A DNA stretch of 24,000 bases from Paenibacillus sambharensis. Lineage in GTDB: Bacteria; Bacillota; Bacilli; Paenibacillales; Paenibacillaceae. The notes below the pieces were generated by a model. That model saw only the letters and a program-made list of their open reading frames with translations. It was not told where the DNA came from and ran no database searches. The DNA lies in the NCBI RefSeq assembly GCF_003233845.1, contig NZ_QKRB01000037.1:83464-107463 (forward strand), in the 5' to 3' direction. The position numbers and the translations under genes are program-made. Positions 7,202 through 23,329 of the stretch are shown in pieces. How positions within the stretch are numbered: the stretch's first letter is position 1; each line of letters opens with the position of its first letter.

Positions 7202-7618
7202 CTATCTTCCCCGGCGCTTTAGCTTCGCTTTCTGTATCCGGAGCTGATATTTCCGTTCCTTCTCTTCCTCCAACTGCTGCCGACTGAACTCTTTCCGCTG
7301 TTTTTTCCGGCATTCCATCTCGAGTTTTATGGCCTCCTGGGCCCGAGTTGAAACCCCTCGCTGAGCAAGTTCCTTCGCTGCCTGGCGCGCCAGTCTTTTT
7401 GGATTGCCCCGATTCAACCGACGATGTCCGCCTTCCGAAGTTTGAGTGGCTCGTTCAATTAAGGGCATCATGATCTTCTGAACGAAGTACATGACCTCGG
7501 CATCCTTCGGCTCACTGCCAAATATGTGCCGTGACACCTTAAGCCTACTATTCTCCTCCTGCTCTAGGACACCCACCCAATACTTCATGCCCTCATCAAA
7601 AAAAACGGTAAGCTTCAT
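7202..7618 (-). CDS. yjdF: YjdF family protein (DUF2992), 138 aa
   Basis: Tracked ORF 7202..7681, trimmed to the ATG at 7618 (SD GAGGGGGAG). MKLTVFFDEGMKYWVGVLEQEENSRLKVSRHIFGSEPKDAEVMYFV plus a basic K/R/E-rich tail matches the B. subtilis YjdF pattern as I recall it. Confidence 0.75.
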   Translation of the reverse strand: MKLTVFFDEGMKYWVGVLEQEENSRLKVSRHIFGSEPKDAEVMYFVQKIMMPLIERATQTSEGGHRRLNRGNPKRLARQAAKELAQRGVSTRAQEAIKLEMECRKKQRKEFSRQQLEEEKERKYQLRIQKAKLKRRGR

Positions 7619-7621
7619 ACT

Positions 7622-7740
7622 TGCTCCCCCTCTAGCGTTACTTGGAGTGAAGGACATCCCGAGGGGGAAGGTTACTGACACAAGAAACGACAGCTTCCCT
7701 GTGCGCCCGGACTACCGACCGAGCAGTGTTTTTACACTCC
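7622..7740 (-). ncRNA. Candidate yjdF-type (azaaromatic) riboswitch in the 5' leader
   Basis: A leader of about 120 nt lies between the promoter and the yjdF-like ATG. GGAGUG pairs with CACUCC as a closing helix, and GGGAAG pairs with CUUCCC as an internal helix. A CCUUCCCCCUC tract is complementary to the SD GAGGGGGAG. This genomic context is the defining one for the yjdF motif. No covariance-model search was run. Confidence 0.5.
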
Positions 7741-7746
7741 ATCTTC

Positions 7747-7870: not shown

Positions 7871-7900
7871 GTGACATTCATACTATTACCACAATATACT
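7871..7900 (+). promoter_or_regulatory. Possible promoter of the NBD-LytTR regulator gene
   Basis: GTGACA (7871-7876), 18 nt, TATACT (7895-7900). This is the best sigma-A-like match in an AT-rich 300-bp gap, so it is a weak call. Confidence 0.3.
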
Positions 7901-7983: not shown

Positions 7984-9120
7984 ATGTCATTACTTACGAT
8001 CAGTCAATTGGTAAAGAGAAAAGGAAACACATTATTACTTCCTGAGATTAATCTTGAGATTGGAAGTGGTCAATGTGTTGTGATCCAATGTAACAACGAG
8101 TTAGGGAATTTACTTATCCAGCTGCTTCTCGGTGCCGTTCCTGCTTCAAGCGGACAAGTACTATTCGAGGCGGCTGAATTGCGGCATGAATTCAAACAAA
8201 AGGCACATAAAATAGGCATATCCCTCTTAAACGATGGAATCTATAATGGCTTAAAAGTGAAGGACTATCTTACTTTTTATAAAAATCTGTATGGGACAAC
8301 AGATACGATTGATATAGTCTTGCGAAGAATAGGGCTGCTCGATCATCGAAACAGCAGGCTCTCTGCGTTAAGCTTCTCTGAACAGAAACGTTTGCAGCTA
8401 GGAAGAGCCATTATACATAATCCTTCATTCCTTATATTAGAAGAACCTGAACAGAATGTAGATATTGAGAGCCATATCATTATTCGGGCATTAATCTCTG
8501 AGCTTCGTAATGAAGGAAAGGCCATTCTGATCACAACCTCCTATCTGGCTGATGCCATTTCTATTACCAATGAGGTATACAGATTAAATGAACACGAACT
8601 CAAAAAGATAGAAATTATCGACCAGCCTGAAACGGATAACCAGACTGACAACCAACTTGTTGCCGCTGCTATTGAACAGCCTGACGATGGTGATAATCAT
8701 CTGCTTGTAACCGATCAACAGATGCCACAATCTGAAGCTGCAATTCAGCCAGCTTCGCCGGTCCAAATTGAAACTCAACCCGTTCGTGTAGAAAAAATTC
8801 CTGCTAAGGTGGAGGATAAGATCATCTTATTCGACCCTACAGAAATCAATTTCATTGAAAGCAGCGATGGAGTCTCCATGCTGCATGTGAAGGGAGAAAC
8901 ATTCCCCTGCACGTTTACTTTAAACGAGCTCGAGCAAAAACTAAAAGCATTCGGCTTTTTCCGCTGCCATCGCTCCTACATCGTCAACTTACAGAAAGTA
9001 CGTGAAGTCATTACTTGGACACGAAACAGCTTCAGCCTTATTTTAGATGATAGCAAGAAAAGCTCGATACCACTTTCCAAAGGCAAGCTTGACGAGTTAA
9101 AGACCATATTAGGCATCTAA
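7984..9120 (+). CDS. Fusion protein: degenerate ABC-ATPase (NBD-like) domain, acidic/Q-rich linker, LytTR DNA-binding domain; 378 aa
   Basis: Tracked ORF, SD GAGGT. The N-terminal 205 aa or so align motif by motif with an ABC NBD, but the catalytic residues are replaced (see findings). The C-terminal 100 aa (8818-9117), KIILFDPTEINFIESSDGVSMLHVKGETF...FFRCHRSYIVNLQKVREV...IPLSKGKLDELK, is a clear LytTR domain. Confidence 0.85.
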   Translation: MSLLTISQLVKRKGNTLLLPEINLEIGSGQCVVIQCNNELGNLLIQLLLGAVPASSGQVLFEAAELRHEFKQKAHKIGISLLNDGIYNGLKVKDYLTFYKNLYGTTDTIDIVLRRIGLLDHRNSRLSALSFSEQKRLQLGRAIIHNPSFLILEEPEQNVDIESHIIIRALISELRNEGKAILITTSYLADAISITNEVYRLNEHELKKIEIIDQPETDNQTDNQLVAAAIEQPDDGDNHLLVTDQQMPQSEAAIQPASPVQIETQPVRVEKIPAKVEDKIILFDPTEINFIESSDGVSMLHVKGETFPCTFTLNELEQKLKAFGFFRCHRSYIVNLQKVREVITWTRNSFSLILDDSKKSSIPLSKGKLDELKTILGI

Positions 9121-9148
9121 AGCTCCAAATTGTCGTACAAAACGCTGT

Positions 9149-9211
9149 ATCATTCACCCTTAAAATTGCATCATTCAACCCTTTATTTACTCTGTTTATC
9201 CTTGAAATACT
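9149..9211 (+). promoter_or_regulatory. LytTR-box-like direct repeats plus an extended -10 box upstream of the ABC operon
   Basis: ATCATTCACCCTT (9149-9161) and ATCATTCAACCCTT (9170-9183) start 21 bp apart. TGaAATACT (9203-9211) is a possible extended -10 box 22 bp after repeat 2. No good -35 box is present, which fits an activator-dependent promoter. Confidence 0.5.
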
Positions 9212-9281
9212 GCGCGGTTACGGGATTTCCTTTAATGTTGGTGCTGCAAGACGAGAACAACATCTAAAGGAGCCAGACCAA

Positions 9282-10130
9282 ATGAAATATCAGATTGAAG
9301 TGAACCAATTAACGAAAGCATTTGCTAATAAGCCGGCTCTAAATGGAGTCAGCTTTCAGATTAAGCGTGGTGAAATTTTTGGGTTTCTTGGTCCAAGCGG
9401 TTCTGGTAAAACAACCATGGTAAAAATATTAACCGCTCAACTTTTACACACATCCGGTTCGGTTAAAGTGTTCGGAAACGACGTACGTAATCTGCAGAAT
9501 CCCGAACAAATGAAACGGATTGGTATTCTTACCGATAACAGCGGTTTGTACGATCGACTTACGATCTATGATAACTTAGAGCTGTTTTGCAAGTTATATA
9601 ATGTGGATGTGAAGCGCATTGAAGAAGTGCTCGAAGAGGTAAATCTCCTTCAAGATAAGAAAACAGCTGTAAAGCAGCTATCCAAAGGCATGAAGCAAAG
9701 AGTGACATTGGCACGGGCCATTTTACATAAGCCTGAGCTTCTGTTCCTGGACGAACCGACCTCAGCTCTTGACCCTACCAATAAACAGCAAATTCATACG
9801 GTCTTACGGAAACTGAATGAGGCGGGAACTACAATCTTTCTAAGCACTCATGACATGCAGGAAGCTGAGGATCTCTGCAATCAGGTTGCATTTCTTCATA
9901 ATGGAACAATTGTAGAGCTGGATACACCTCAAAGCCTGCGAGTGAAACACGGTGACTCAACCATTAATATTCGATTAAAGAACGGTACCTCTGTAACCGT
10001 AGGTCTGGATGAGGCCGGGTCTAACGCTATCAGAGATTATATGAATAATGGAGAGCTGCTTACGATTCATTCTAATGAACCAACTTTAGGGGATATATTC
10101 ATCAAACTAACTGGGAGGGCGCTCCAATGA
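9282..10130 (+). CDS. ABC transporter ATP-binding protein (canonical NBD, DrrA/CcmA-like), 282 aa
   Basis: Tracked ORF, SD AAAGGAG. Walker A GPSGSGKTT, signature LSKGMKQR, Walker B LLFLDEPTSALD, H-loop LSTHDM. Confidence 0.9.
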   Translation: MKYQIEVNQLTKAFANKPALNGVSFQIKRGEIFGFLGPSGSGKTTMVKILTAQLLHTSGSVKVFGNDVRNLQNPEQMKRIGILTDNSGLYDRLTIYDNLELFCKLYNVDVKRIEEVLEEVNLLQDKKTAVKQLSKGMKQRVTLARAILHKPELLFLDEPTSALDPTNKQQIHTVLRKLNEAGTTIFLSTHDMQEAEDLCNQVAFLHNGTIVELDTPQSLRVKHGDSTINIRLKNGTSVTVGLDEAGSNAIRDYMNNGELLTIHSNEPTLGDIFIKLTGRALQ

Positions 10131-10837
10131 CATTTTCGATGAGAAGAATACGAGCGATTATTACGAAGGATTGGAAAGACTTATTAAAAAACTCATACAT
10201 ATTAGTTTCCATACTCCTGCCATTAGGCTTTGCAGCCATGCTATCTCGTATGAGTACGGATGACAGCAGCATGCTGAGTATGCCGATTAACCTTGCATTA
10301 GTTATGACGGGCGCATTTGTTCAAGCATCGATGATGGCAGAAGAAAAAGAAAGAAGCACCTTGCGTGTCCTATTACTCTCTCCTGCTTCAACACTGGAAA
10401 TTATGATTGGCAAAAGCGTTTTATCTGCGATTATTACGTTAATTGTCGTCATTGGTTCTATCTTAATCAGCGGAATTAACATTCCCGAACTATTTTACTT
10501 TTCTATTATGATTTTATTATCACTGATCATATTCATATCGTTAGGAACCATTATTGGACTCATCTCACGTACGGTCATGGAAACCTCCATTGTAGGATTG
10601 CCTATTCTCATCATCTTTACCTATGGATCGATGTTAAGCTCTATGTTTAATAGCCCCATTATCGCAGAGAGTATTTCTTATTTACCTACAGAAAACTTCT
10701 CATCCGCACTTGTGAGTTTACAAGGCAGCGGCGGTTTTGCAGAAATTAAGTGGAATCTCCTAAATATGCTCCTATGGGCGATTGGCTCGGTAATCCTGGC
10801 CAAATTCATCTACGGAAAGCGTCGCTTAGACAAGTAA
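10127..10837 (+). CDS. ABC-2 type transporter permease, 236 aa
   Basis: Tracked ORF. The ATGA start/stop overlap with the ATPase gene and SD GGGAGGG indicate coupling. It has multiple hydrophobic helices and the ABC-2 motif EEKERSTLRVLLLSP. Confidence 0.8.
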   Translation: MTFSMRRIRAIITKDWKDLLKNSYILVSILLPLGFAAMLSRMSTDDSSMLSMPINLALVMTGAFVQASMMAEEKERSTLRVLLLSPASTLEIMIGKSVLSAIITLIVVIGSILISGINIPELFYFSIMILLSLIIFISLGTIIGLISRTVMETSIVGLPILIIFTYGSMLSSMFNSPIIAESISYLPTENFSSALVSLQGSGGFAEIKWNLLNMLLWAIGSVILAKFIYGKRRLDK

Positions 10838-10867
10838 CTATAAATAGTGGAATGCGAGGTAACACTT

Positions 10868-10960
10868 ATGAACTCTAAAACAACCAAATTTATTTTTCAA
10901 ATGTTAATGGCAGCTGTTATTACTATAGTTATTGTTACGGTTATCAAAAACTTCGCTTAA
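10868..10960 (+). CDS. Small hydrophobic single-TM peptide (30 aa), untracked sORF
   Basis: ATG at 10868 follows GCGAGGT (SD-like, about 7 nt upstream), 30 nt after the permease stop. The translation is MNSKTTKFIFQMLMAAVITIVIVTVIKNFA, with stop TAA at 10958-10960. The operon terminator follows, so the sORF lies inside the transcription unit. Confidence 0.4.
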   Translation: MNSKTTKFIFQMLMAAVITIVIVTVIKNFA

Positions 10961-10985
10961 TTACTTAAAGACAAGGAATGTAAAA

Positions 10986-11015
10986 AGCCCTTCGAGATTG
11001 AAGGGCTTTCTGATC
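10986..11015 (+). terminator. Rho-independent terminator of the ABC operon
   Basis: AGCCCTTC (10986-10993) pairs with GAAGGGCT (11000-11007) across a 6-nt loop and is followed by TTTCTGAT. Confidence 0.6.
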
Positions 11016-18841: not shown

Positions 18842-19151
18842 TTAGACTGCCTATAATTGGGGAAAATGGCGGCAACGTCCTGTTTCGCTTGGAATACATT
18901 ATTCGTTCAACGGGGGATTCGGACAAACCACGTTTCGACGTTACTATTTTTCCATCATCAGCATGTTTTAATGCTGGCTGACTCCACTTATAGGGTGTCG
19001 CCAGTTAGAGATTCTAGGTCGTTTTTAAGCCGATGTTTTAATGGGTTCTAGATCAATGGTCTTTTGGCTGTATGCCGACTTGACCATTTATCGTTATAAT
19101 GAAGGAACCGATTCACGAGCGGCCAAGCTCAAGAAAGGAATAGGTTCCATC

Positions 19152-20336
19152 ATGACAATAATGGATTCGAATTCACCAATCGGGCTGAGCGTTGCCGAGT
19201 GGCAGGATCTAATCGCCACCTGCGCCCGGAAAGCGGCGGACACCCCGTACGAAATAAATTATGGCACCGAGGTCCGCTCCATGGTGCGCCCCTTCATGTC
19301 GGAGTTCACACCCGAGGAAGCCTGGCTGTTCGAGCTGAACGTCGGCCTGTTCCTGCTCCGCAAGCAATCGACCGGCCGCCACTTGGGCTACTTCGCCCAG
19401 ATGGCGGCATCCGAGACGCTGCATGCCATCGAGAGTCACATCCATAACGACTTGCCGCCGGAGATCGCGGTCAAGCAGCAGGGGCGGCTGCTGGAGACGG
19501 CTGCATATATTCGTGATACGGCAACCGCGAATGCATGGTCCCCACCAGCCTATCTGGATATCTACGTGGAGCTGTGGCAGATCCTGGTTTCATCCGCTGC
19601 GGACAGCCCTCGTCTCCTCAAGGAGGAGCTGGCGCATCTATCCCAGGGACCCGGCATGGAAAACAAGCTCTTCCCGCTCGTCGCCCTAGCCTGGATGTAT
19701 TTCTGGCTGGGTGAGGATCAAGAGGCTTGGCGGCTGCTGGATTCTGCTGGGCGGCATGGGCTAAAGCCCGGGCAGGTATTTCGCTTCCTGCGCCAGCTGG
19801 AGGAGAATGACGAATGGACCCGGCTTGAAGCCTGGCTGAGCCATTGCTCGAACGAGCAAATTGGGCGCAGTCCCGGCAGCCTAGGTGAGTATGGCCGCTA
19901 TTGGGATGCCGTCGTCAAGCAACTGCCGGAGGCCGAGGAACGAATGTGGATCACGATTACGAGCCTGCCTCCCTACTGCAGCAGCTTGTACGAGGAGAAA
20001 CTAATGCGCTATGGCTGTTGGAGGCAGTGGATCGATTACCAGCTTAGCCTCGGCAGCGATCCGCTCGACTTTCGAGCAAAGGATCTGCAGCCCATCGAGA
20101 AGGAGGCGCCGGAAACGCTGCTGCCTTTTTATCACCAAGGCGTCGAGAAATACGTGTTGTTAAAAAACCGCGACGGCTACAAGCGGGCGATCAAGCTGCT
20201 CAAACGTCTGGCCAAGCTGTATAAGAAGCTGAAGCGCGAGCAGCGGTGGGAGGCATACATCGAGACATTCGCCAGCCGGCATAGCCGATTGCGAGCCCTC
20301 CAGGAGGAGCTGCGGAGAGGAGGACTAATTCCATGA
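19152..20336 (+). CDS. Alpha-helical hypothetical protein translationally coupled to the SNF2 helicase (occupies the YwqB-like position; no SWIM motif seen), about 394 aa
   Basis: Tracked ORF 19041..20336. The start is uncertain (ATG 19152 or 19161; AAAGGAA lies 12 nt upstream). Its stop overlaps the helicase ATG (ATGA at 20333-20336). The C-terminal KRAIKLLKRLAKLYKKLKREQRWEAYIETF is helical. High-GC codon usage matches the helicase gene. Confidence 0.6.
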   Translation: MTIMDSNSPIGLSVAEWQDLIATCARKAADTPYEINYGTEVRSMVRPFMSEFTPEEAWLFELNVGLFLLRKQSTGRHLGYFAQMAASETLHAIESHIHNDLPPEIAVKQQGRLLETAAYIRDTATANAWSPPAYLDIYVELWQILVSSAADSPRLLKEELAHLSQGPGMENKLFPLVALAWMYFWLGEDQEAWRLLDSAGRHGLKPGQVFRFLRQLEENDEWTRLEAWLSHCSNEQIGRSPGSLGEYGRYWDAVVKQLPEAEERMWITITSLPPYCSSLYEEKLMRYGCWRQWIDYQLSLGSDPLDFRAKDLQPIEKEAPETLLPFYHQGVEKYVLLKNRDGYKRAIKLLKRLAKLYKKLKREQRWEAYIETFASRHSRLRALQEELRRGGLIP

Positions 20337-23329
20337 CGAAGACGACTGCTTATAACCTGGATACCACCGCGGTTCGAATGGTGCTGACGTCGCATGGTGA
20401 CGCGTTGTTCTTCGCGGACCCGAATTCGCTGCGGGAATGGACCGGACTTCAATTGAAGCATCGCCTGTTCGCCTGGCACGAACCGTCCTTCTATGGCACC
20501 GAGCTGGAGCTCGTCAAAGTCGGGGAGCTCGAGGCCGTCGTGCTGCCCGCCGCAGAGGTCATCCCCTTCTTTGCATCGGGACCTCTACTGGCGCATATGG
20601 AGTGGAAGTGGGAAGACGATGCCGCGCGCTTGGCCGCATTAGCGCCGCTCTTGGGTGAGTGCCTGGAGAAAGGGCTGTACGCACCCGACCTTGCGGCTTA
20701 CCGCAGAGGCTCCCTGCGCTGGAATTGGGATGCGGCGGCGGTCTCCGCGACCTTCGGACAGGCGCGCCGCAACGAACTGGACCTGGAGCGCGGCGGCTGG
20801 AGCGATGAGGCGCGCGACGGGCTAATGGCGGCCTTCTCGGCGGCCGTAACGAGCCGCTTCTATGGTACGGAGTCGGACGAAGCGGATCTGCGCCGGGAAT
20901 TCCCGGCTCTGTTCGCGCGCGAGAACTCAGCGGCCGCGACGGCGGGACTCGACAACGAGACCTGGCTTGTGCAGATCGGCTGGAAAGCGGATGTCGCGCC
21001 GTTCCGCCCCCTGCTGCAGCTAATGGAGCCGTGGGAGGGCGACGAGCACTCCCGCTGGCGGCTGCGGCTCGTGCTGCAGGACAAGAGCGATCCGGCTAAG
21101 CTTCGAACAGTACGGCTCGGCGACGACGGCTCGGTGGCAGGCAAGTGGCCGGACGCATGGGCGGACGCTATTCGGAGCCGCTCGGACGGTTGGCTGCAGC
21201 GGCTGCGGGCCAGCCTTCCGCGCGATCGGCTGTCGCGCGGCGAGGACGTACTCGGCAAGCCGCTTGACGACGAGGCGGCCTGGCGCTTCCTGAACGAGGA
21301 CAGCCGCCGGCTGCTCGAAGCCGGATGGCAGGTCCTGCTGCCCGCATGGTGGGAAGCCGCTAGCCGCAAGAAGCCGCGGCTGCGCGCAGCGGTGCAGTCG
21401 GAGGACGAATCCAAGAAACGGGGCGGCGGCAAGTCTTTGTTCGGTCTGGATGCGATTCTGAGCTTCAACTGGCGCATCTCCATCGGCGACGCCGACCTGA
21501 ACGAGGAGGAGTTCGACGAGCTGCTGGCTCGAGGGGAGCGTCTCGTAAAGTTCCGGGACCGCTGGATCGTGCTCGATCCGGCGCTGATCGCCCAGATCCG
21601 CCGCATGATGGAAGGCATGGACAAGAGCCAGGGATTAAGCTTCCAGGATGTGCTGCAATTGCATCTGCTCTCTCAGGGCGAGGTGGATGGCGGTGCAACA
21701 GACGCCAGTGCAGAGACTCACGGGGCCGATTCCGCCCGCGTTGAGCTCGAAGTCGAACTCAATGCGCATTTGACCGGGCTGTTCGCCAAGATTAATCAAC
21801 AGAGCGAATGGCCTAGGCTCGATCCGCCCGCCGGTCTGCGTGCCGAGCTGCGCAGCTACCAGCAGGATGGATTCGCCTGGCTGGCCTTTCTCCGCCGCTT
21901 CGGGCTCGGGGCCTGTCTCGCGGACGACATGGGACTCGGCAAGACGGTCCAGTTGATTGCCTACCTGTTGCACGCCAAGGAGCAGGCGGACGATGGGCTC
22001 CGGCTCCCTTCGCTGATCGTCTGCCCTACGTCCGTACTCGGCAACTGGCAGAAGGAGATTTCCCGCTTCGCTCCATCGCTCAAGGTGGCCATGCATTACG
22101 GCTCCGGGCGTAAGAGCGGCGACGCGTTCCGGAACGAGGCACGCAGCGTTGACGTCGTGCTGACCTCCTATGCCACCGCCTCGCTCGATCAGGAAACGCT
22201 GGCCGCTTTCCAATGGGGAGCCGTCTGTTTGGACGAAGCCCAGAATATCAAGAACGCCGGGACCAGACAGGCCGCCGCGGTCAAGAGCTTTCCCGCGCTT
22301 CATCGCATTGCGCTTACCGGGACACCGATCGAGAATCGGCTGGCGGAGCTATGGTCGATCTACGATTTTACCGTGCCCACTTACCTCGGGTCCGCCAAGG
22401 CGTTCCAGGACCGCTTCGCAGCGCCGATCGAGCGCGAACAGGACGGGCGTCGCACGGCTGAGCTAAAGCGGCTGGTAAAACCGTTCATGCTGCGGCGCAA
22501 GAAGAAGGATCCCGCCATCCAGCTCGACCTGCCGGACAAGAACGAGATGAAGACGTATGTTCCGCTTACCTCCGAGCAAGCTGCCTTGTACGACAATTGC
22601 GTCAAGGAGCTGCTCGAGAAGCTGAAGAAGCTCGACGGTATCCAGCGCAAAGGCGCCATTCTCGGAGCGCTGACACGTCTCAAGCAGGCATGTAACCATC
22701 CGGCTTTGCTGGATGAGGATACGGGAACGGAGCTGGAGGATGGCCCTCTACACACGGAGGCGATCGTCGCCCGCTCCTCCAAGCTCGAGAGGCTGCTGGC
22801 AATGGTCAAGGAGCTGCGCGAGGCGGACGAGCGCTGCCTCATCTTCACGCAATACATTGGCATGGGCAAAATGATTCAGGATGTCCTGCAGCGCGAGCTG
22901 GGCGAGCCCGTACTGTACCTGAACGGCAGCACGCCGAAGACGCAGCGGGACCGGATGGTCGAACGGTTTCAGTCCCGCGACCTTCCGGCATCCGAGCAGC
23001 CGAACGTGTTTATCCTTTCCCTCAAGGCAGGAGGCGTCGGGCTTAACTTGACCGCGGCGAACCACGTATTCCACTTCGACCGCTGGTGGAACCCGGCCGT
23101 CGAGAACCAGGCGACCGACCGCGCCTACCGGATGGGCCAGACACGCGACGTGCAGGTGCATAAATTCATCTCGCTCGGCACTCTCGAGGAGCGCATCGAC
23201 GAGATGCTGGAGAACAAGCAGCAGCTAAGCGACAACGTGATCTCCAGCTCAGAGAGCTGGATTACCGAGCTATCGACGGATGCGCTGCGGGAGTTGTTCT
23301 CGCTTCGGCGGGACTGGTCGCGCGATTAA
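20333..23329 (+). CDS. SNF2/RAD54 family DEAD-like helicase (YwqA-like), 998 aa
   Basis: Tracked ORF, SD GAGAGGAGGA. LADDMGLGKT (motif I), LDEAQNIKN (motif II), LTGTPIENRL, LKAGGVGLNLT, WWNPAVENQATDRAYRMGQ (motif VI). The N-terminal 500 aa or so resemble the SNF2-associated domain of bacterial homologs. Confidence 0.9.
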   Translation: MTKTTAYNLDTTAVRMVLTSHGDALFFADPNSLREWTGLQLKHRLFAWHEPSFYGTELELVKVGELEAVVLPAAEVIPFFASGPLLAHMEWKWEDDAARLAALAPLLGECLEKGLYAPDLAAYRRGSLRWNWDAAAVSATFGQARRNELDLERGGWSDEARDGLMAAFSAAVTSRFYGTESDEADLRREFPALFARENSAAATAGLDNETWLVQIGWKADVAPFRPLLQLMEPWEGDEHSRWRLRLVLQDKSDPAKLRTVRLGDDGSVAGKWPDAWADAIRSRSDGWLQRLRASLPRDRLSRGEDVLGKPLDDEAAWRFLNEDSRRLLEAGWQVLLPAWWEAASRKKPRLRAAVQSEDESKKRGGGKSLFGLDAILSFNWRISIGDADLNEEEFDELLARGERLVKFRDRWIVLDPALIAQIRRMMEGMDKSQGLSFQDVLQLHLLSQGEVDGGATDASAETHGADSARVELEVELNAHLTGLFAKINQQSEWPRLDPPAGLRAELRSYQQDGFAWLAFLRRFGLGACLADDMGLGKTVQLIAYLLHAKEQADDGLRLPSLIVCPTSVLGNWQKEISRFAPSLKVAMHYGSGRKSGDAFRNEARSVDVVLTSYATASLDQETLAAFQWGAVCLDEAQNIKNAGTRQAAAVKSFPALHRIALTGTPIENRLAELWSIYDFTVPTYLGSAKAFQDRFAAPIEREQDGRRTAELKRLVKPFMLRRKKKDPAIQLDLPDKNEMKTYVPLTSEQAALYDNCVKELLEKLKKLDGIQRKGAILGALTRLKQACNHPALLDEDTGTELEDGPLHTEAIVARSSKLERLLAMVKELREADERCLIFTQYIGMGKMIQDVLQRELGEPVLYLNGSTPKTQRDRMVERFQSRDLPASEQPNVFILSLKAGGVGLNLTAANHVFHFDRWWNPAVENQATDRAYRMGQTRDVQVHKFISLGTLEERIDEMLENKQQLSDNVISSSESWITELSTDALRELFSLRRDWSRD

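What the first reader, a model, noticed from the sequence alone, without database searches (positions are those of the whole stretch)
7984..9120. Catalytically degenerate ABC-ATPase domain fused to a LytTR DNA-binding domain
The fusion protein can be compared directly with the genuine NBD encoded 160 bp downstream. In each motif below the fusion is listed first and the downstream NBD second.
- Walker A: VIQCNNELGNLL versus GPSGSGKTT. The glycines and the P-loop lysine are lost.
- Q-loop region: ISLLNDGIY has no glutamine.
- Signature: LSFSEQKRL versus LSKGMKQRV. This is partly kept.
- Walker B and D-loop: FLILEEPEQNVD versus LLFLDEPTSALD. The aspartate becomes glutamate.
- H-loop: ILITTSYLAD versus IFLSTHDMQE. 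The histidine becomes tyrosine.

The fold therefore appears retained while the catalytic residues are replaced. An acidic/Q-rich linker (with TDNQ repeated twice) joins it to a textbook LytTR domain (FFRCHRSYIVNL).

Characterised LytTR regulators usually take their input from a receiver domain (AgrA, ComE, LytR) or a membrane inhibitor (HdrRM/BrsRM). I know of no characterised case where the input is a pseudo-NBD. One mechanistic idea is that the pseudo-NBD docks on the neighbouring permease or pairs with the true NBD, so that transporter state is reported directly to DNA.
Basis: partly seen in the sequence, partly recalled or inferred. Interest (0 to 1): 0.8.

Follow-up and report, generated by a model that had tools for sequence, protein, structure and literature searches.

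The report
Dead ABC ATPase fused to LytTR regulator
This gene encodes a widespread but unstudied bacterial transcription factor whose sensor half is an ABC-transporter ATPase domain that has lost its ATP-binding residues, and it most likely switches on the neighbouring exporter genes by binding three evenly spaced DNA repeats in front of them.

Summary
ORF 7984-9120 (+) is one 378-aa protein with three parts: an ABC nucleotide-binding-domain (NBD) fold (residues 1-213), a disordered Glu/Gln-rich linker (214-268) and a LytTR DNA-binding domain (269-378).

It is not a frameshift or assembly join. The best 120 homologue clusters all carry both domains. They come from Paenibacillus, Cohnella, the Bacillus cereus group, Priestia, Terribacillus and others.

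The ATP-contacting residues are replaced, and the replacements are conserved:
- The A-loop aromatic is lost.
- Walker A is [QKH]-C-N-x-E-x-G, with no P-loop lysine.
- The Walker B Asp is Glu in 120/120.

New here:
- In 75 of 77 genomes the gene is followed by a canonical DrrA-like NBD and an ABC-2 permease.
- The gap between them holds 2-6 direct repeats (GCTCCATTCAnCC) at 21-bp steps. They are in register with a weak -35 and a good -10.
- There are no such repeats upstream of the regulator gene itself.
- Some relatives carry their own permease paralogue directly after the fusion gene.
- One relative keeps an intact Walker A and B.

The DNA side is well supported: a LytTR activator of the adjacent exporter. 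Docking of the dead NBD on the exporter is plausible but untested. No paper describing this architecture was found.

The parts
7871..7900 (+). Sigma-A-like promoter of the regulator gene (GTGACA-18-TATACT). No LytTR-type repeats lie near it.
   Evidence: Consensus scan, 10/12 match. The position weight matrix (PWM) scan finds no site of >=9 bits in the 250 bp upstream of the fusion gene, here or in 20 other loci.
7984..9120 (+). Gene for the pseudo-NBD-LytTR regulator (378 aa).
   Evidence: ORF. Pfam ABC_tran + LytTR. 100% identical to a Paenibacillus sambharensis protein, and the best 120 homologue clusters share the architecture.
7984..8622 (+). Residues 1-213: ABC NBD fold with the ATP-contacting residues replaced. 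The A-loop aromatic is lost. The Walker A equivalent IQCNNELGNLLI lies at 8083-8118. The signature is LSFSE, Walker B is ILEEP and the D-loop is QNVD. The H-loop position is Ser186.
   Evidence: AF2 pLDDT >90. Foldseek to LptB, TM_1403 and NosF at rmsd 2.2-2.6 A. Motif conservation.
8623..8787 (+). Residues 214-268: disordered acidic/Gln-rich linker, including TDNQTDNQ.
   Evidence: AF2 pLDDT <50. Linker length is variable in the family (median 47 aa, up to 118) and it is 18.6% Glu.
8788..9117 (+). Residues 269-378: LytTR DNA-binding domain (FFRCHRSYIVNLQ...).
   Evidence: Pfam E 1.5e-26. It is the most conserved part of the protein, with 70% mean identity over 74 loci. Many columns are invariant.
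9147..9160 (+). Direct repeat R1, GTATCATTCACCCT (predicted LytTR site).
   Evidence: PWM 15.7 bits, one of the two best hits in the 24-kb window. 21-bp periodicity is conserved across genera.
9168..9181 (+). Direct repeat R2, GCATCATTCAACCC, 21 bp after R1.
   Evidence: PWM 17.0 bits, the best hit in the window..
9189..9202 (+). Degenerate third repeat R3, ACTCTGTTTATCCT, 21 bp after R2.
   Evidence: Weak here (3.6 bits). An ACTCTTTTCATCC-like unit occupies this slot in other Paenibacillus, Bacillus and Priestia loci.
9210..9238 (+). Predicted activator-dependent promoter of the exporter operon: weak -35 CTGCGC (21 bp after R3), 17-bp spacer, -10 TAATGT.
   Evidence: A TAnnnT hexamer lies exactly 65 bp after the start of the last strong repeat in 13 of 23 non-redundant promoters. 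No other offset between 55 and 75 has more than 3. The generic sigma-70 scan finds no promoter here. The transcription start is not mapped.
9282..10130 (+). Genuine NBD of the exporter (282 aa, DrrA-like with a C-terminal domain).
   Evidence: Pfam ABC_tran E 4.6e-35. TIGR01188 drrA 241 bits. Walker A, Walker B, D-loop and H-loop are invariant in 75/75 orthologues.
10127..10837 (+). ABC-2 permease (236 aa). Its start overlaps the NBD stop by 4 nt. It carries an AEEKER motif after the second hydrophobic segment.
   Evidence: Pfam ABC2_membrane_3, ABC2_membrane and ABC2_membrane_2. Syntenic in 75/77 genomes.

Best explanation
The three genes form a self-contained module. The first gene makes a one-component LytTR transcription factor from its own constitutive-looking promoter.

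Output side
- The LytTR domain binds the 21-bp-phased repeats R1-R3 (9147-9202).
- These sit one repeat step upstream of a weak -35 and a good -10.
- Binding activates transcription of the adjacent NBD-permease exporter operon.

Input side
- The input domain is an NBD that keeps the ABC fold but can no longer bind or hydrolyse ATP.
- It retains the groove that real NBDs use to grip a permease coupling helix.
- Its former ATP-sandwich face has been remodelled and is strongly conserved.
- Most likely it takes an NBD seat on the ABC-2 permease, pairs with the true NBD, or both. The exporter's occupancy or conformational state would then decide how much regulator is free to dimerise on the repeats.

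What is shown and what is inferred
- Shown by sequence and comparative evidence: the architecture, the conserved loss of catalytic residues, the synteny, the operator and its promoter geometry, and the absence of autoregulatory sites.
- Inferred: that it is an activator rather than a repressor, that it physically docks on the exporter, and the direction of signalling.
For: Architecture and fold
-.

Conserved degeneracy
- C36 in 118/120 homologues, N37 in 111/120, E153 in 120/120, and Q157 and N158 in 118/120 each.
- The A-loop aromatic is lost.
- 38 of the top 150 50%-identity clusters found with the pseudo-NBD alone carry LytTR. All but one of them have a degenerate P-loop.

Synteny
- Fusion, then a gap, then NBD and permease in 75/77 genomes.
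- The same order holds in distant subfamilies.
- Flanking genes differ from one genome to another.

Operator
- Self-similarity in the gap peaks only at a 21-bp shift: 8.9 versus 6.54 +/- 0.18 in shuffles. There is no peak upstream of the fusion genes.
- Consensus GCTCCATTCAGCC, present in 2-6 copies.
- The two copies in the window are the best PWM hits in the 24 kb.
- The -10 hexamer sits at a fixed offset of +65.
- Nine-bp repeats with 12-bp spacers just upstream of -35 are the documented LytTR activator layout (PMC6193735, read).

Docking
- In L054, L083 and L085 the fusion gene is followed directly by an ABC-2 permease paralogue. Each carries the same [AS]EEKE motif, and no NBD lies between.
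- Family-specific conserved residues cluster on the P-loop, signature, Walker B and D-loop face.
- The groove residues Y87, L90, L96, L102 and Y103 stay NBD-like. R89 matches the partner NBD (100%) but only 15% of generic NBDs.
Against: - No physical or structural test of docking was possible.
- The pseudo-NBD is not a recent duplicate of the partner NBD. It is 26% identical, and partner-type NBDs are not among its top 150 hits.
- The window protein itself has Gly, not Arg, at position 89.
- One relative (Oceanirhabdus, L071) has no transporter next to it and no repeats.
- AF2 gives no fixed orientation between the domains (pTM 0.57).
- The promoter and transcription start are predicted, not mapped.
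- The PWM was built from the same regions it scores. The periodicity test is independent of it.
- A repressor role for R3 cannot be excluded.
Confidence: 0.5

Rival explanations
1. The dead NBD is only a dimerisation or small-ligand-binding module. It brings two LytTR domains together on the tandem repeats, perhaps in response to a cytoplasmic ligand bound in the remodelled former ATP pocket. It never touches the exporter, and the link to the transporter is purely transcriptional.
For: - NBDs are natural head-to-tail dimerisers, and LytTR sites are tandem repeats that need at least two DNA-binding domains (PMC6193735).
- The family-specific conserved residues lie on the dimer or ATP-pocket face.
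- An orphan member has no adjacent transporter.
- The pseudo-NBD is only 26% identical to the partner NBD.
Against: - It does not explain why the groove region behind the Q-loop stays NBD-like.
- It does not explain why some members are co-operonic with a dedicated permease paralogue and no NBD.
- It does not explain why the P-loop sequence differs between subfamilies while the signature and D-loop are shared.
Confidence: 0.25
2. The protein is a repressor or dual regulator. Binding at R3 and the in-phase -35 slot occludes RNA polymerase, and the exporter operon is derepressed when the regulator is titrated to the membrane.
For: - The repeat array runs right up to the -35-like hexamer, in the same 21-bp register.
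- No terminator was found between the regulator gene and the repeats, so read-through could supply expression.
- From memory, not checked here: a repressing LytTR regulator (PlnD) is known.
Against: - The -35 is poor (CTGCGC, ATGCGG) while the -10 is good, which is the signature of activator dependence.
- Characterised LytTR regulators with repeats just upstream of -35 are activators (PMC6193735).
- The strong sites are the distal ones and the proximal site is degenerate.
Confidence: 0.15
3. It is an ordinary transporter ATPase that decayed recently, or an artefactual join of an NBD gene and a LytTR gene.
For: Pfam ABC_tran still scores above its threshold. One relative (P0195) has an intact Walker A and B.
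Against: - The best 120 homologue clusters from several genera all have the continuous two-domain ORF.
- The replaced residues are themselves conserved.
- The pseudo-NBD is 48% identical on average across 74 loci, between the permease (41%) and the true NBD (63%). This indicates purifying selection.
- A separate, fully canonical NBD is always present.
Confidence: 0.02

Closest known systems
LytTR regulatory systems (HdrRM, BrsRM, SMU_433/434, SMU_1070c/1069c of Streptococcus mutans; PMC6193735)
   Same: - The LytTR regulator has no receiver domain.
- The direct repeats have a 21-bp period just upstream of a promoter.
- Several of these systems are genetically linked to ABC transporter genes.
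- The regulator is controlled by a membrane partner rather than by phosphorylation.
   Different: - There is no small dedicated membrane inhibitor gene here.
- The regulator carries a 213-residue pseudo-NBD instead of being a bare LytTR domain.
- The repeats lie in front of the transporter operon, not the regulator gene, so no positive autoregulation is evident.
AgrA/ComE/LytR/NatR-type response regulators (REC + LytTR). NatKR controlling natAB is recalled from memory.
   Same: The same DNA-binding domain and tandem-repeat operator. NatR likewise controls an adjacent ABC-2-type NBD-permease pair.
   Different: The input is a dead ABC NBD, not a phospho-accepting receiver domain. No histidine kinase is encoded in the module.
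Transporter-coupled sensing ('trigger transporters': BceAB-BceS flux sensing, MalK-MalT sequestration; recalled from memory)
   Same: The concept that the state of an ABC transporter is relayed to a transcription regulator by direct protein contact.
   Different: Here the transporter-like contact module would be built into the transcription factor itself. The contact has not been demonstrated.
Degenerate nucleotide-binding sites of heterodimeric ABC exporters (TM287/288, BmrCD, CFTR NBD1; recalled from memory)
   Same: An NBD fold with non-canonical catalytic residues is retained for structural or regulatory pairing with a competent NBD.
   Different: Those NBDs still bind ATP and keep Walker A. 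This one has lost the A-loop, the Walker A Lys and glycines, the Walker B Asp and the H-loop His, and its signature is altered too. It is also not part of a transporter polypeptide.

Membership tests
LytTR DNA-binding domain family (PF04397) | Sequence match to the LytTR profile above the curated threshold | tested here: met
   E 1.5e-26, 92.9 bits against a cut-off of 22.6, covering profile positions 1-97 of 98. AF2 models the domain with pLDDT ~90.
LytTR DNA-binding domain family (PF04397) | Cognate operator made of direct repeats with a ~21-bp period near a promoter | tested here: met
   R1 and R2 lie 21 bp apart at 9147 and 9168. The periodicity is conserved across genera. Binding itself was not tested.
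Catalytically competent ABC ATPase (NBD) | ABC NBD fold | tested here: met
   Pfam ABC_tran 41.9 bits against a cut-off of 25. Foldseek matches to LptB, TM_1403 and NosF at rmsd 2.2-2.6 A over ~212-218 columns.
Catalytically competent ABC ATPase (NBD) | Walker A GxxGxGK[ST] with the P-loop lysine | tested here: not met
   QCNNELGN here. C36, N37 and E39 are conserved, and no lysine is fixed.
Catalytically competent ABC ATPase (NBD) | A-loop aromatic, Walker B Asp, H-loop His and LSGGQ-type signature | tested here: not met
   - The A-loop F/Y is replaced by variable K/I/S/E.
- Walker B D->E in 120/120.
- H-loop His -> S/N.
- Signature L[ST][FY]SE.
Catalytically competent ABC ATPase (NBD) | ATP binding and hydrolysis | not testable with these tools
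   This needs a biochemical assay. Sequence predicts neither activity.
Two-component response regulator of the AgrA/LytR class | N-terminal receiver domain with a phospho-acceptor Asp, and a cognate histidine kinase | tested here: not met
   There is no Response_reg hit, and the N-terminus is ABC_tran. No kinase gene lies within the module or among the flanking genes annotated.
LytTR regulatory system (LRS) sensu PMC6193735 | LytTR regulator without a receiver domain | tested here: met
LytTR regulatory system (LRS) sensu PMC6193735 | Cognate small transmembrane inhibitor encoded directly downstream in the same operon | tested here: not met
   The next gene is a soluble NBD, after a 161-bp gap that carries its own promoter elements. 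The permease might play this role, but that is inference.
LytTR regulatory system (LRS) sensu PMC6193735 | Direct repeats upstream of the regulator's own operon (positive autoregulation) | tested here: not met
   No PWM site pair was found in the 250 bp upstream of the fusion gene in 21 loci. Sites were found in the downstream gap in 19 of the 21. There is no 21-bp periodicity upstream.
Anti-phage defence ATPases (PADLOC) | Specific match to a defence-system protein model | tested here: not met
   Only generic ABC-ATPase similarity was found (mad3 E 2e-10 on a partial stretch).

The most novel reading that the evidence does not exclude
Pseudo-NBD-LytTR proteins are a widespread, unrecognised class of 'transporter-embedded' transcription factors. 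The dead NBD occupies an NBD seat on its cognate ABC-2 exporter, or on a dedicated permease paralogue that forms an ATP-independent pseudo-transporter. Substrate engagement or ATP-driven closure of the real NBDs releases or captures it. Transporter conformation would thus be converted directly into promoter occupancy, without a kinase, a second messenger or a separate membrane inhibitor.
Probability: 0.4. Interest if true: 0.8.

Novelty: new variant of a known kind. Interest (0 to 1): 0.64.

Why it matters
LytTR regulators control virulence, competence, bacteriocins and envelope stress in Firmicutes. How the receiver-less ones sense anything is an open question.

This family offers a defined and testable answer: an ABC ATPase fold repurposed as the input domain. 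It is genetically locked to one small exporter and has an easily assayed operator.

It occurs in experimentally tractable and medically or industrially relevant bacteria, including the Bacillus cereus group, Priestia megaterium and Paenibacillus.

If docking is confirmed, it would add a new way of coupling transporter activity to gene expression. It would also be a natural example of an NBD that evolved from enzyme to pure protein-interaction module. Intermediates still exist: one relative keeps Walker A and B.

Tried and rejected
- **Multimer modelling** of pseudo-NBD with the NBD or permease. The structure tool takes one chain only, and the two genes are in different frames, so no natural concatenation was possible.
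- **Metagenome scan** with the 'own-permease' variant P0134, to collect more such loci. It returned only ordinary NBDs at 20-28% identity and two short LytTR fragments.
- **Exact-sequence look-up** of B. cereus and B. thuringiensis orthologues, to obtain names or accessions. The sequences are not in the collection.
- **Literature.** Seven full-text searches found no description of the fusion. One further query was rejected on syntax. Four papers were checked by in-text term search. The original LytTR domain paper (Nikolskaya & Galperin 2002), which may list this architecture, is not held. Prior mention at the domain-census level therefore cannot be excluded.
- **Autoregulation** via repeats upstream of the regulator gene. 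None were found.
- **Defence-system membership.** Only generic ATPase similarity.
- **Solved structure of the fusion.** None exists; PDB hits are ordinary NBDs.
- **Other DNA-binding domains fused to this pseudo-NBD.** None appeared among the top hits. The short 175-239-aa hits may be fragments.
- **Recent duplication of the partner NBD** as the origin of the pseudo-NBD. Not supported: 26% identity, and partner-type NBDs are absent from the top 150 hits.
- **A structured RNA in the exporter leader.** No Rfam hit.
Full report
**What is at the coordinates**

ORF 7984..9120 (+) encodes 378 aa with a plausible ribosome-binding site. Pfam finds ABC_tran (residues 21-155, 41.9 bits, above the 25-bit cut-off) and LytTR (278-376, 92.9 bits) in the one polypeptide. 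No NCBIfam model reaches its cut-off, so there is no curated family for this protein.

AlphaFold2, run on a 78-sequence alignment, gives three parts:
- a confident NBD fold for residues 1-213 (pLDDT >90);
- a disordered 214-268 linker (pLDDT <50);
- a confident LytTR domain at 269-378.

pTM is 0.57, so there is no fixed arrangement between the domains. Foldseek places the N-terminal domain on TM_1403, LptB, NosF and MlaF at 2.2-2.6 A rmsd. No solved structure has this fusion.

**Is the degeneracy real and conserved?**

In the 120 best homologues (44-100% identical) the substitutions are themselves conserved:
- Walker A is [QKH]-C-N-x-E-[LVI]-G (C36 118/120, N37 111/120, E39 102/120). The P-loop lysine position is occupied by a mix of N, K, H, R and S.
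- The Walker B Asp is Glu in 120/120.
- The D-loop is Q-N-[VIL]-D.
- The signature is L-[ST]-[FY]-S-E-[KQ]-[KR]-R.
- The H-loop His position is S/N.

The A-loop aromatic is F/Y in 17/17 dereplicated partner NBDs and 22/26 generic NBDs, and is K/I/S/E here.

The missing Q-loop glutamine is not a sign of decay. The genuine partner NBD also lacks it (ILTDNSG, invariant in 75/75), while its Walker A, Walker B, D-loop and H-loop are all invariant and canonical.

The pseudo-NBD averages 48% identity to the window protein over 74 loci. This is slower-evolving than the permease (41%) and faster than the true NBD (63%) or LytTR (70%). It is therefore under purifying selection.

**How widespread is it?**

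The window protein is 100% identical to a Paenibacillus sambharensis entry. The top 120 clusters (90% identity level) all carry PF00005 + PF04397. They come from Paenibacillus, Cohnella, Priestia megaterium, Heyndrickxia, Cytobacillus, Metabacillus, Lederbergia and others. The '1606 hits' figure also includes ordinary NBDs and is not a family count.

A scan of species-representative genomes found 77 true relatives. These include many Bacillus cereus-group species, Terribacillus and one clostridial genome.

An exhaustive search with the pseudo-NBD alone found 38 LytTR-bearing clusters (50% identity level) among the top 150 hits. Across these subfamilies the P-loop remnant differs (IQCNxELG, IHxxxNVR, VQSNHITG, IKCSxxxG). 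The signature (SEKKR-like) and EEPxQN[VIL]D are shared.

One cluster, P0195, keeps an intact GQTGSGKT and LLLLDEPT but has lost the H-loop His and the signature. It is 41% identical to the window protein and sits in the same three-gene arrangement. It looks like an evolutionary intermediate.

**Context**

In 75 of 77 genomes the fusion gene is followed, after 140-400 bp, by a 281-284-aa DrrA-like NBD and a ~236-aa ABC-2 permease. The NBD stop overlaps the permease start. Distant subfamilies show the same order. Flanking genes differ from one genome to another, so the three genes are a self-contained module.

Exceptions are informative:
- In Priestia taiwanensis (L054) the fusion gene is followed 10 bp later by a second ABC-2 permease paralogue. 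A hairpin, the repeats, and then the NBD-permease pair follow.
- In two short metagenomic contigs (L083, L085) the next gene is also a permease homologue carrying the same [AS]EEKE motif.
- Oceanirhabdus (L071) has an orphan copy with no adjacent transporter and no repeats.

The 161-bp gap contains ATCATTCACCC at 9149 and ATCATTCAACCC at 9170, 21 bp apart.

A motif-free test was run on 20 diverse loci, scoring the best 12-bp self-match at each shift from 10 to 35. It peaks only at 21 bp: 8.9 versus 6.54 +/- 0.18 in shuffles. No peak appears in the regions upstream of the fusion genes.

A position weight matrix (PWM) refined from these regions gives the consensus GCTCCATTCAGCC. It is present in 2-6 copies at steps of 21 +/- 1 bp in each lineage. 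The two window copies (15.7 and 17.0 bits) are the best hits in the whole 24 kb, and the next best scores 13.9.

Downstream geometry is conserved:
- the last strong repeat is followed at +21 by a degenerate repeat (ACTCTTTTCATCC-like);
- at +42 there is a poor -35-like hexamer ([AC]TG[CT]G[CGT]);
- after a 17-bp spacer, at exactly +65, there is a TAnnnT hexamer in 13 of 23 non-redundant promoters. No other offset between 55 and 75 has more than 3.

In the window this gives R1 at 9147, R2 at 9168, R3 at 9189, -35 at 9210-9215 (CTGCGC), -10 at 9233-9238 (TAATGT) and the ATG at 9282.

Nine-bp repeats separated by 12 bp, just upstream of a -35, are the documented layout of LytTR activators (PMC6193735, read).

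No site pair occurs upstream of the fusion gene in any of 21 loci. The regulator has its own sigma-A-like promoter at 7871-7900. No terminator was detected between the regulator gene and the repeats, so read-through may give basal exporter expression.

**What the dead NBD probably does**

I compared 116 pseudo-NBDs, 17 dereplicated partner NBDs and 26 generic NBDs.

Residues conserved only in the pseudo-NBDs:
- C36 and N37 (P-loop);
- S132 and E133 (signature);
- E153 (Walker B);
- Q157 and N158 (D-loop);
- S163 and I166;
- a C-terminal hairpin (T195, Y199, G205, K207).

Apart from that hairpin, these map to the motifs that form the ATP-sandwich dimer face in canonical NBDs (motif-to-face assignment from general ABC knowledge; the model's coordinates were not inspected). 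That face has therefore been rebuilt and then fixed, not left to drift.

The stretch after the Q-loop forms the groove for the permease coupling helix in real NBDs (general ABC knowledge). It stays NBD-like (Y87, L90, L96, L102, Y103). R89 is shared with the partner NBD family (100%) but is rare in generic NBDs (15%). The window protein itself has Gly at that position.

The best-supported reading rests on three observations: this residue pattern, the fixed synteny, and the variants that pair the fusion with a permease and no NBD. On that basis the pseudo-NBD most likely still sits on an ABC-2 permease, pairs with the true NBD, or both, and so couples exporter state to the availability of the DNA-binding domain. 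This step is inference. I could not model complexes.

My confidence in each step:

| Step | Confidence |
|---|---|
| Protein regulates the adjacent operon through the repeats | ~0.85 |
| It is an activator | ~0.7 |
| The N-terminal domain binds no ATP | ~0.85 |
| It contacts the exporter physically | ~0.4-0.5 |

**Comparison with what is known**

- It works most like the receiver-less LytTR regulatory systems of S. mutans. It fails two of their defining features: there is no small membrane inhibitor gene and there are no autoregulatory repeats.
- It is not a response regulator, because it has no receiver domain and no kinase.
- It has the ABC fold but fails every catalytic-motif test for a competent NBD.
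- Conceptually it resembles transporter-coupled sensing (BceAB-BceS, MalK-MalT; from memory), with the transporter-like module built into the transcription factor.
- The exporter belongs to the DrrA/LanF-like ABC-2 class.
- Hints of a link to antimicrobial peptides are weak. One is a neighbouring C39-peptidase ABC exporter and S8 peptidase in P. megaterium. The other is a LanFEG-like set in Lederbergia.

**Verdict**

The domain architecture is visible in databases under generic names. No functional description was found in seven full-text searches, and the earliest LytTR domain paper could not be read. I rate it a new variant of a known kind (receiver-less LytTR one-component regulators), with interest 0.64.

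Noticed in passing
window 7634-7745 (-), with gene 7202-7681 (-): An azaaromatic (yjdF) riboswitch aptamer (Rfam RF01764, 85.7 bits, E 1.7e-16) sits upstream of a DUF2992 gene and is divergent from the regulator gene. The mechanical ORF start (GTG at 7681) overlaps the aptamer. The real start is probably the ATG at 7618 (MKLTVFF...), because the Pfam match begins at residue 24.
   Followed up: partly
window 9282-10130 (+), residues 80-93: The genuine partner NBD has ILTDNSG where the Q-loop glutamine should be, invariant in 75/75 orthologues. Every other catalytic motif is canonical. Related NBDs found with the pseudo-NBD query share a Gln-less [IV]xL[DE]xxGLY loop. From memory, this resembles the 'E-loop' variant of lantibiotic-immunity LanF ATPases.
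   Followed up: partly
window 8001-11000 versus flanks: G+C is 0.39-0.41 across the three-gene module, against 0.51-0.55 in the flanking kilobases on either side (the 7-8 kb bin is intermediate at 0.44). This is compatible with horizontal acquisition of the module. Flanking genes are unrelated regulators and oxidoreductases (AraC/GyrI-like, TetR, NmrA-like, MmyB-like).
   Followed up: no
L081 2903-3949 (protein P0195, metagenome SRR24079436): A family member, 41% identical, keeps an intact Walker A (GQTGSGKT), Walker B and D-loop but has lost the H-loop His and the signature. It sits in the same fusion-NBD-permease arrangement. It may be an evolutionary intermediate that still binds ATP.
   Followed up: partly
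L054 5001-8461 (Priestia taiwanensis); L083 2219-2473; L085 1456-1686: In these variants the gene directly after the fusion is an ABC-2 permease paralogue carrying the same [AS]EEKE motif, with no NBD between them. In L054 the usual repeats, NBD and permease follow after a hairpin. This suggests a dedicated 'pseudo-transporter' made of the dead NBD and its own permease.
   Followed up: partly
L071 5001-6218 (Oceanirhabdus seepicola, Clostridia): An orphan ABC-LytTR gene with no adjacent NBD or permease and no GCTCCATTCA-type repeats downstream. Its neighbours are a methyltransferase, a metallophosphoesterase and a histidine kinase.
   Followed up: partly
L086/L087 64-3655 (Priestia megaterium); L090 6880-9044 (Lederbergia): In P. 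megaterium the module lies next to a C39-peptidase ABC exporter, an S8 peptidase and a GerE-type regulator, which is a bacteriocin-like set. In Lederbergia it lies next to a LanFEG-like ABC with two ABC2_membrane_4 permeases. These are weak hints that the exporter handles antimicrobial peptides.
   Followed up: no
window 19041-23329 (+): A high-G+C stretch (0.57-0.65) encodes a 431-aa protein with no Pfam hit. Its stop overlaps the start of a 998-aa DUF3670 + SNF2 helicase gene. It is unrelated to the finding.
   Followed up: no
window 9239-9281: The predicted leader between the -10 hexamer and the ATG is short here (43 nt) but 80-120 nt in the Bacillus cereus group, where an A-rich block (AAACGAAACGAACAAACG) is conserved. 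No Rfam family matched the window leader; the longer B. cereus-group leaders were not scanned.
   Followed up: no
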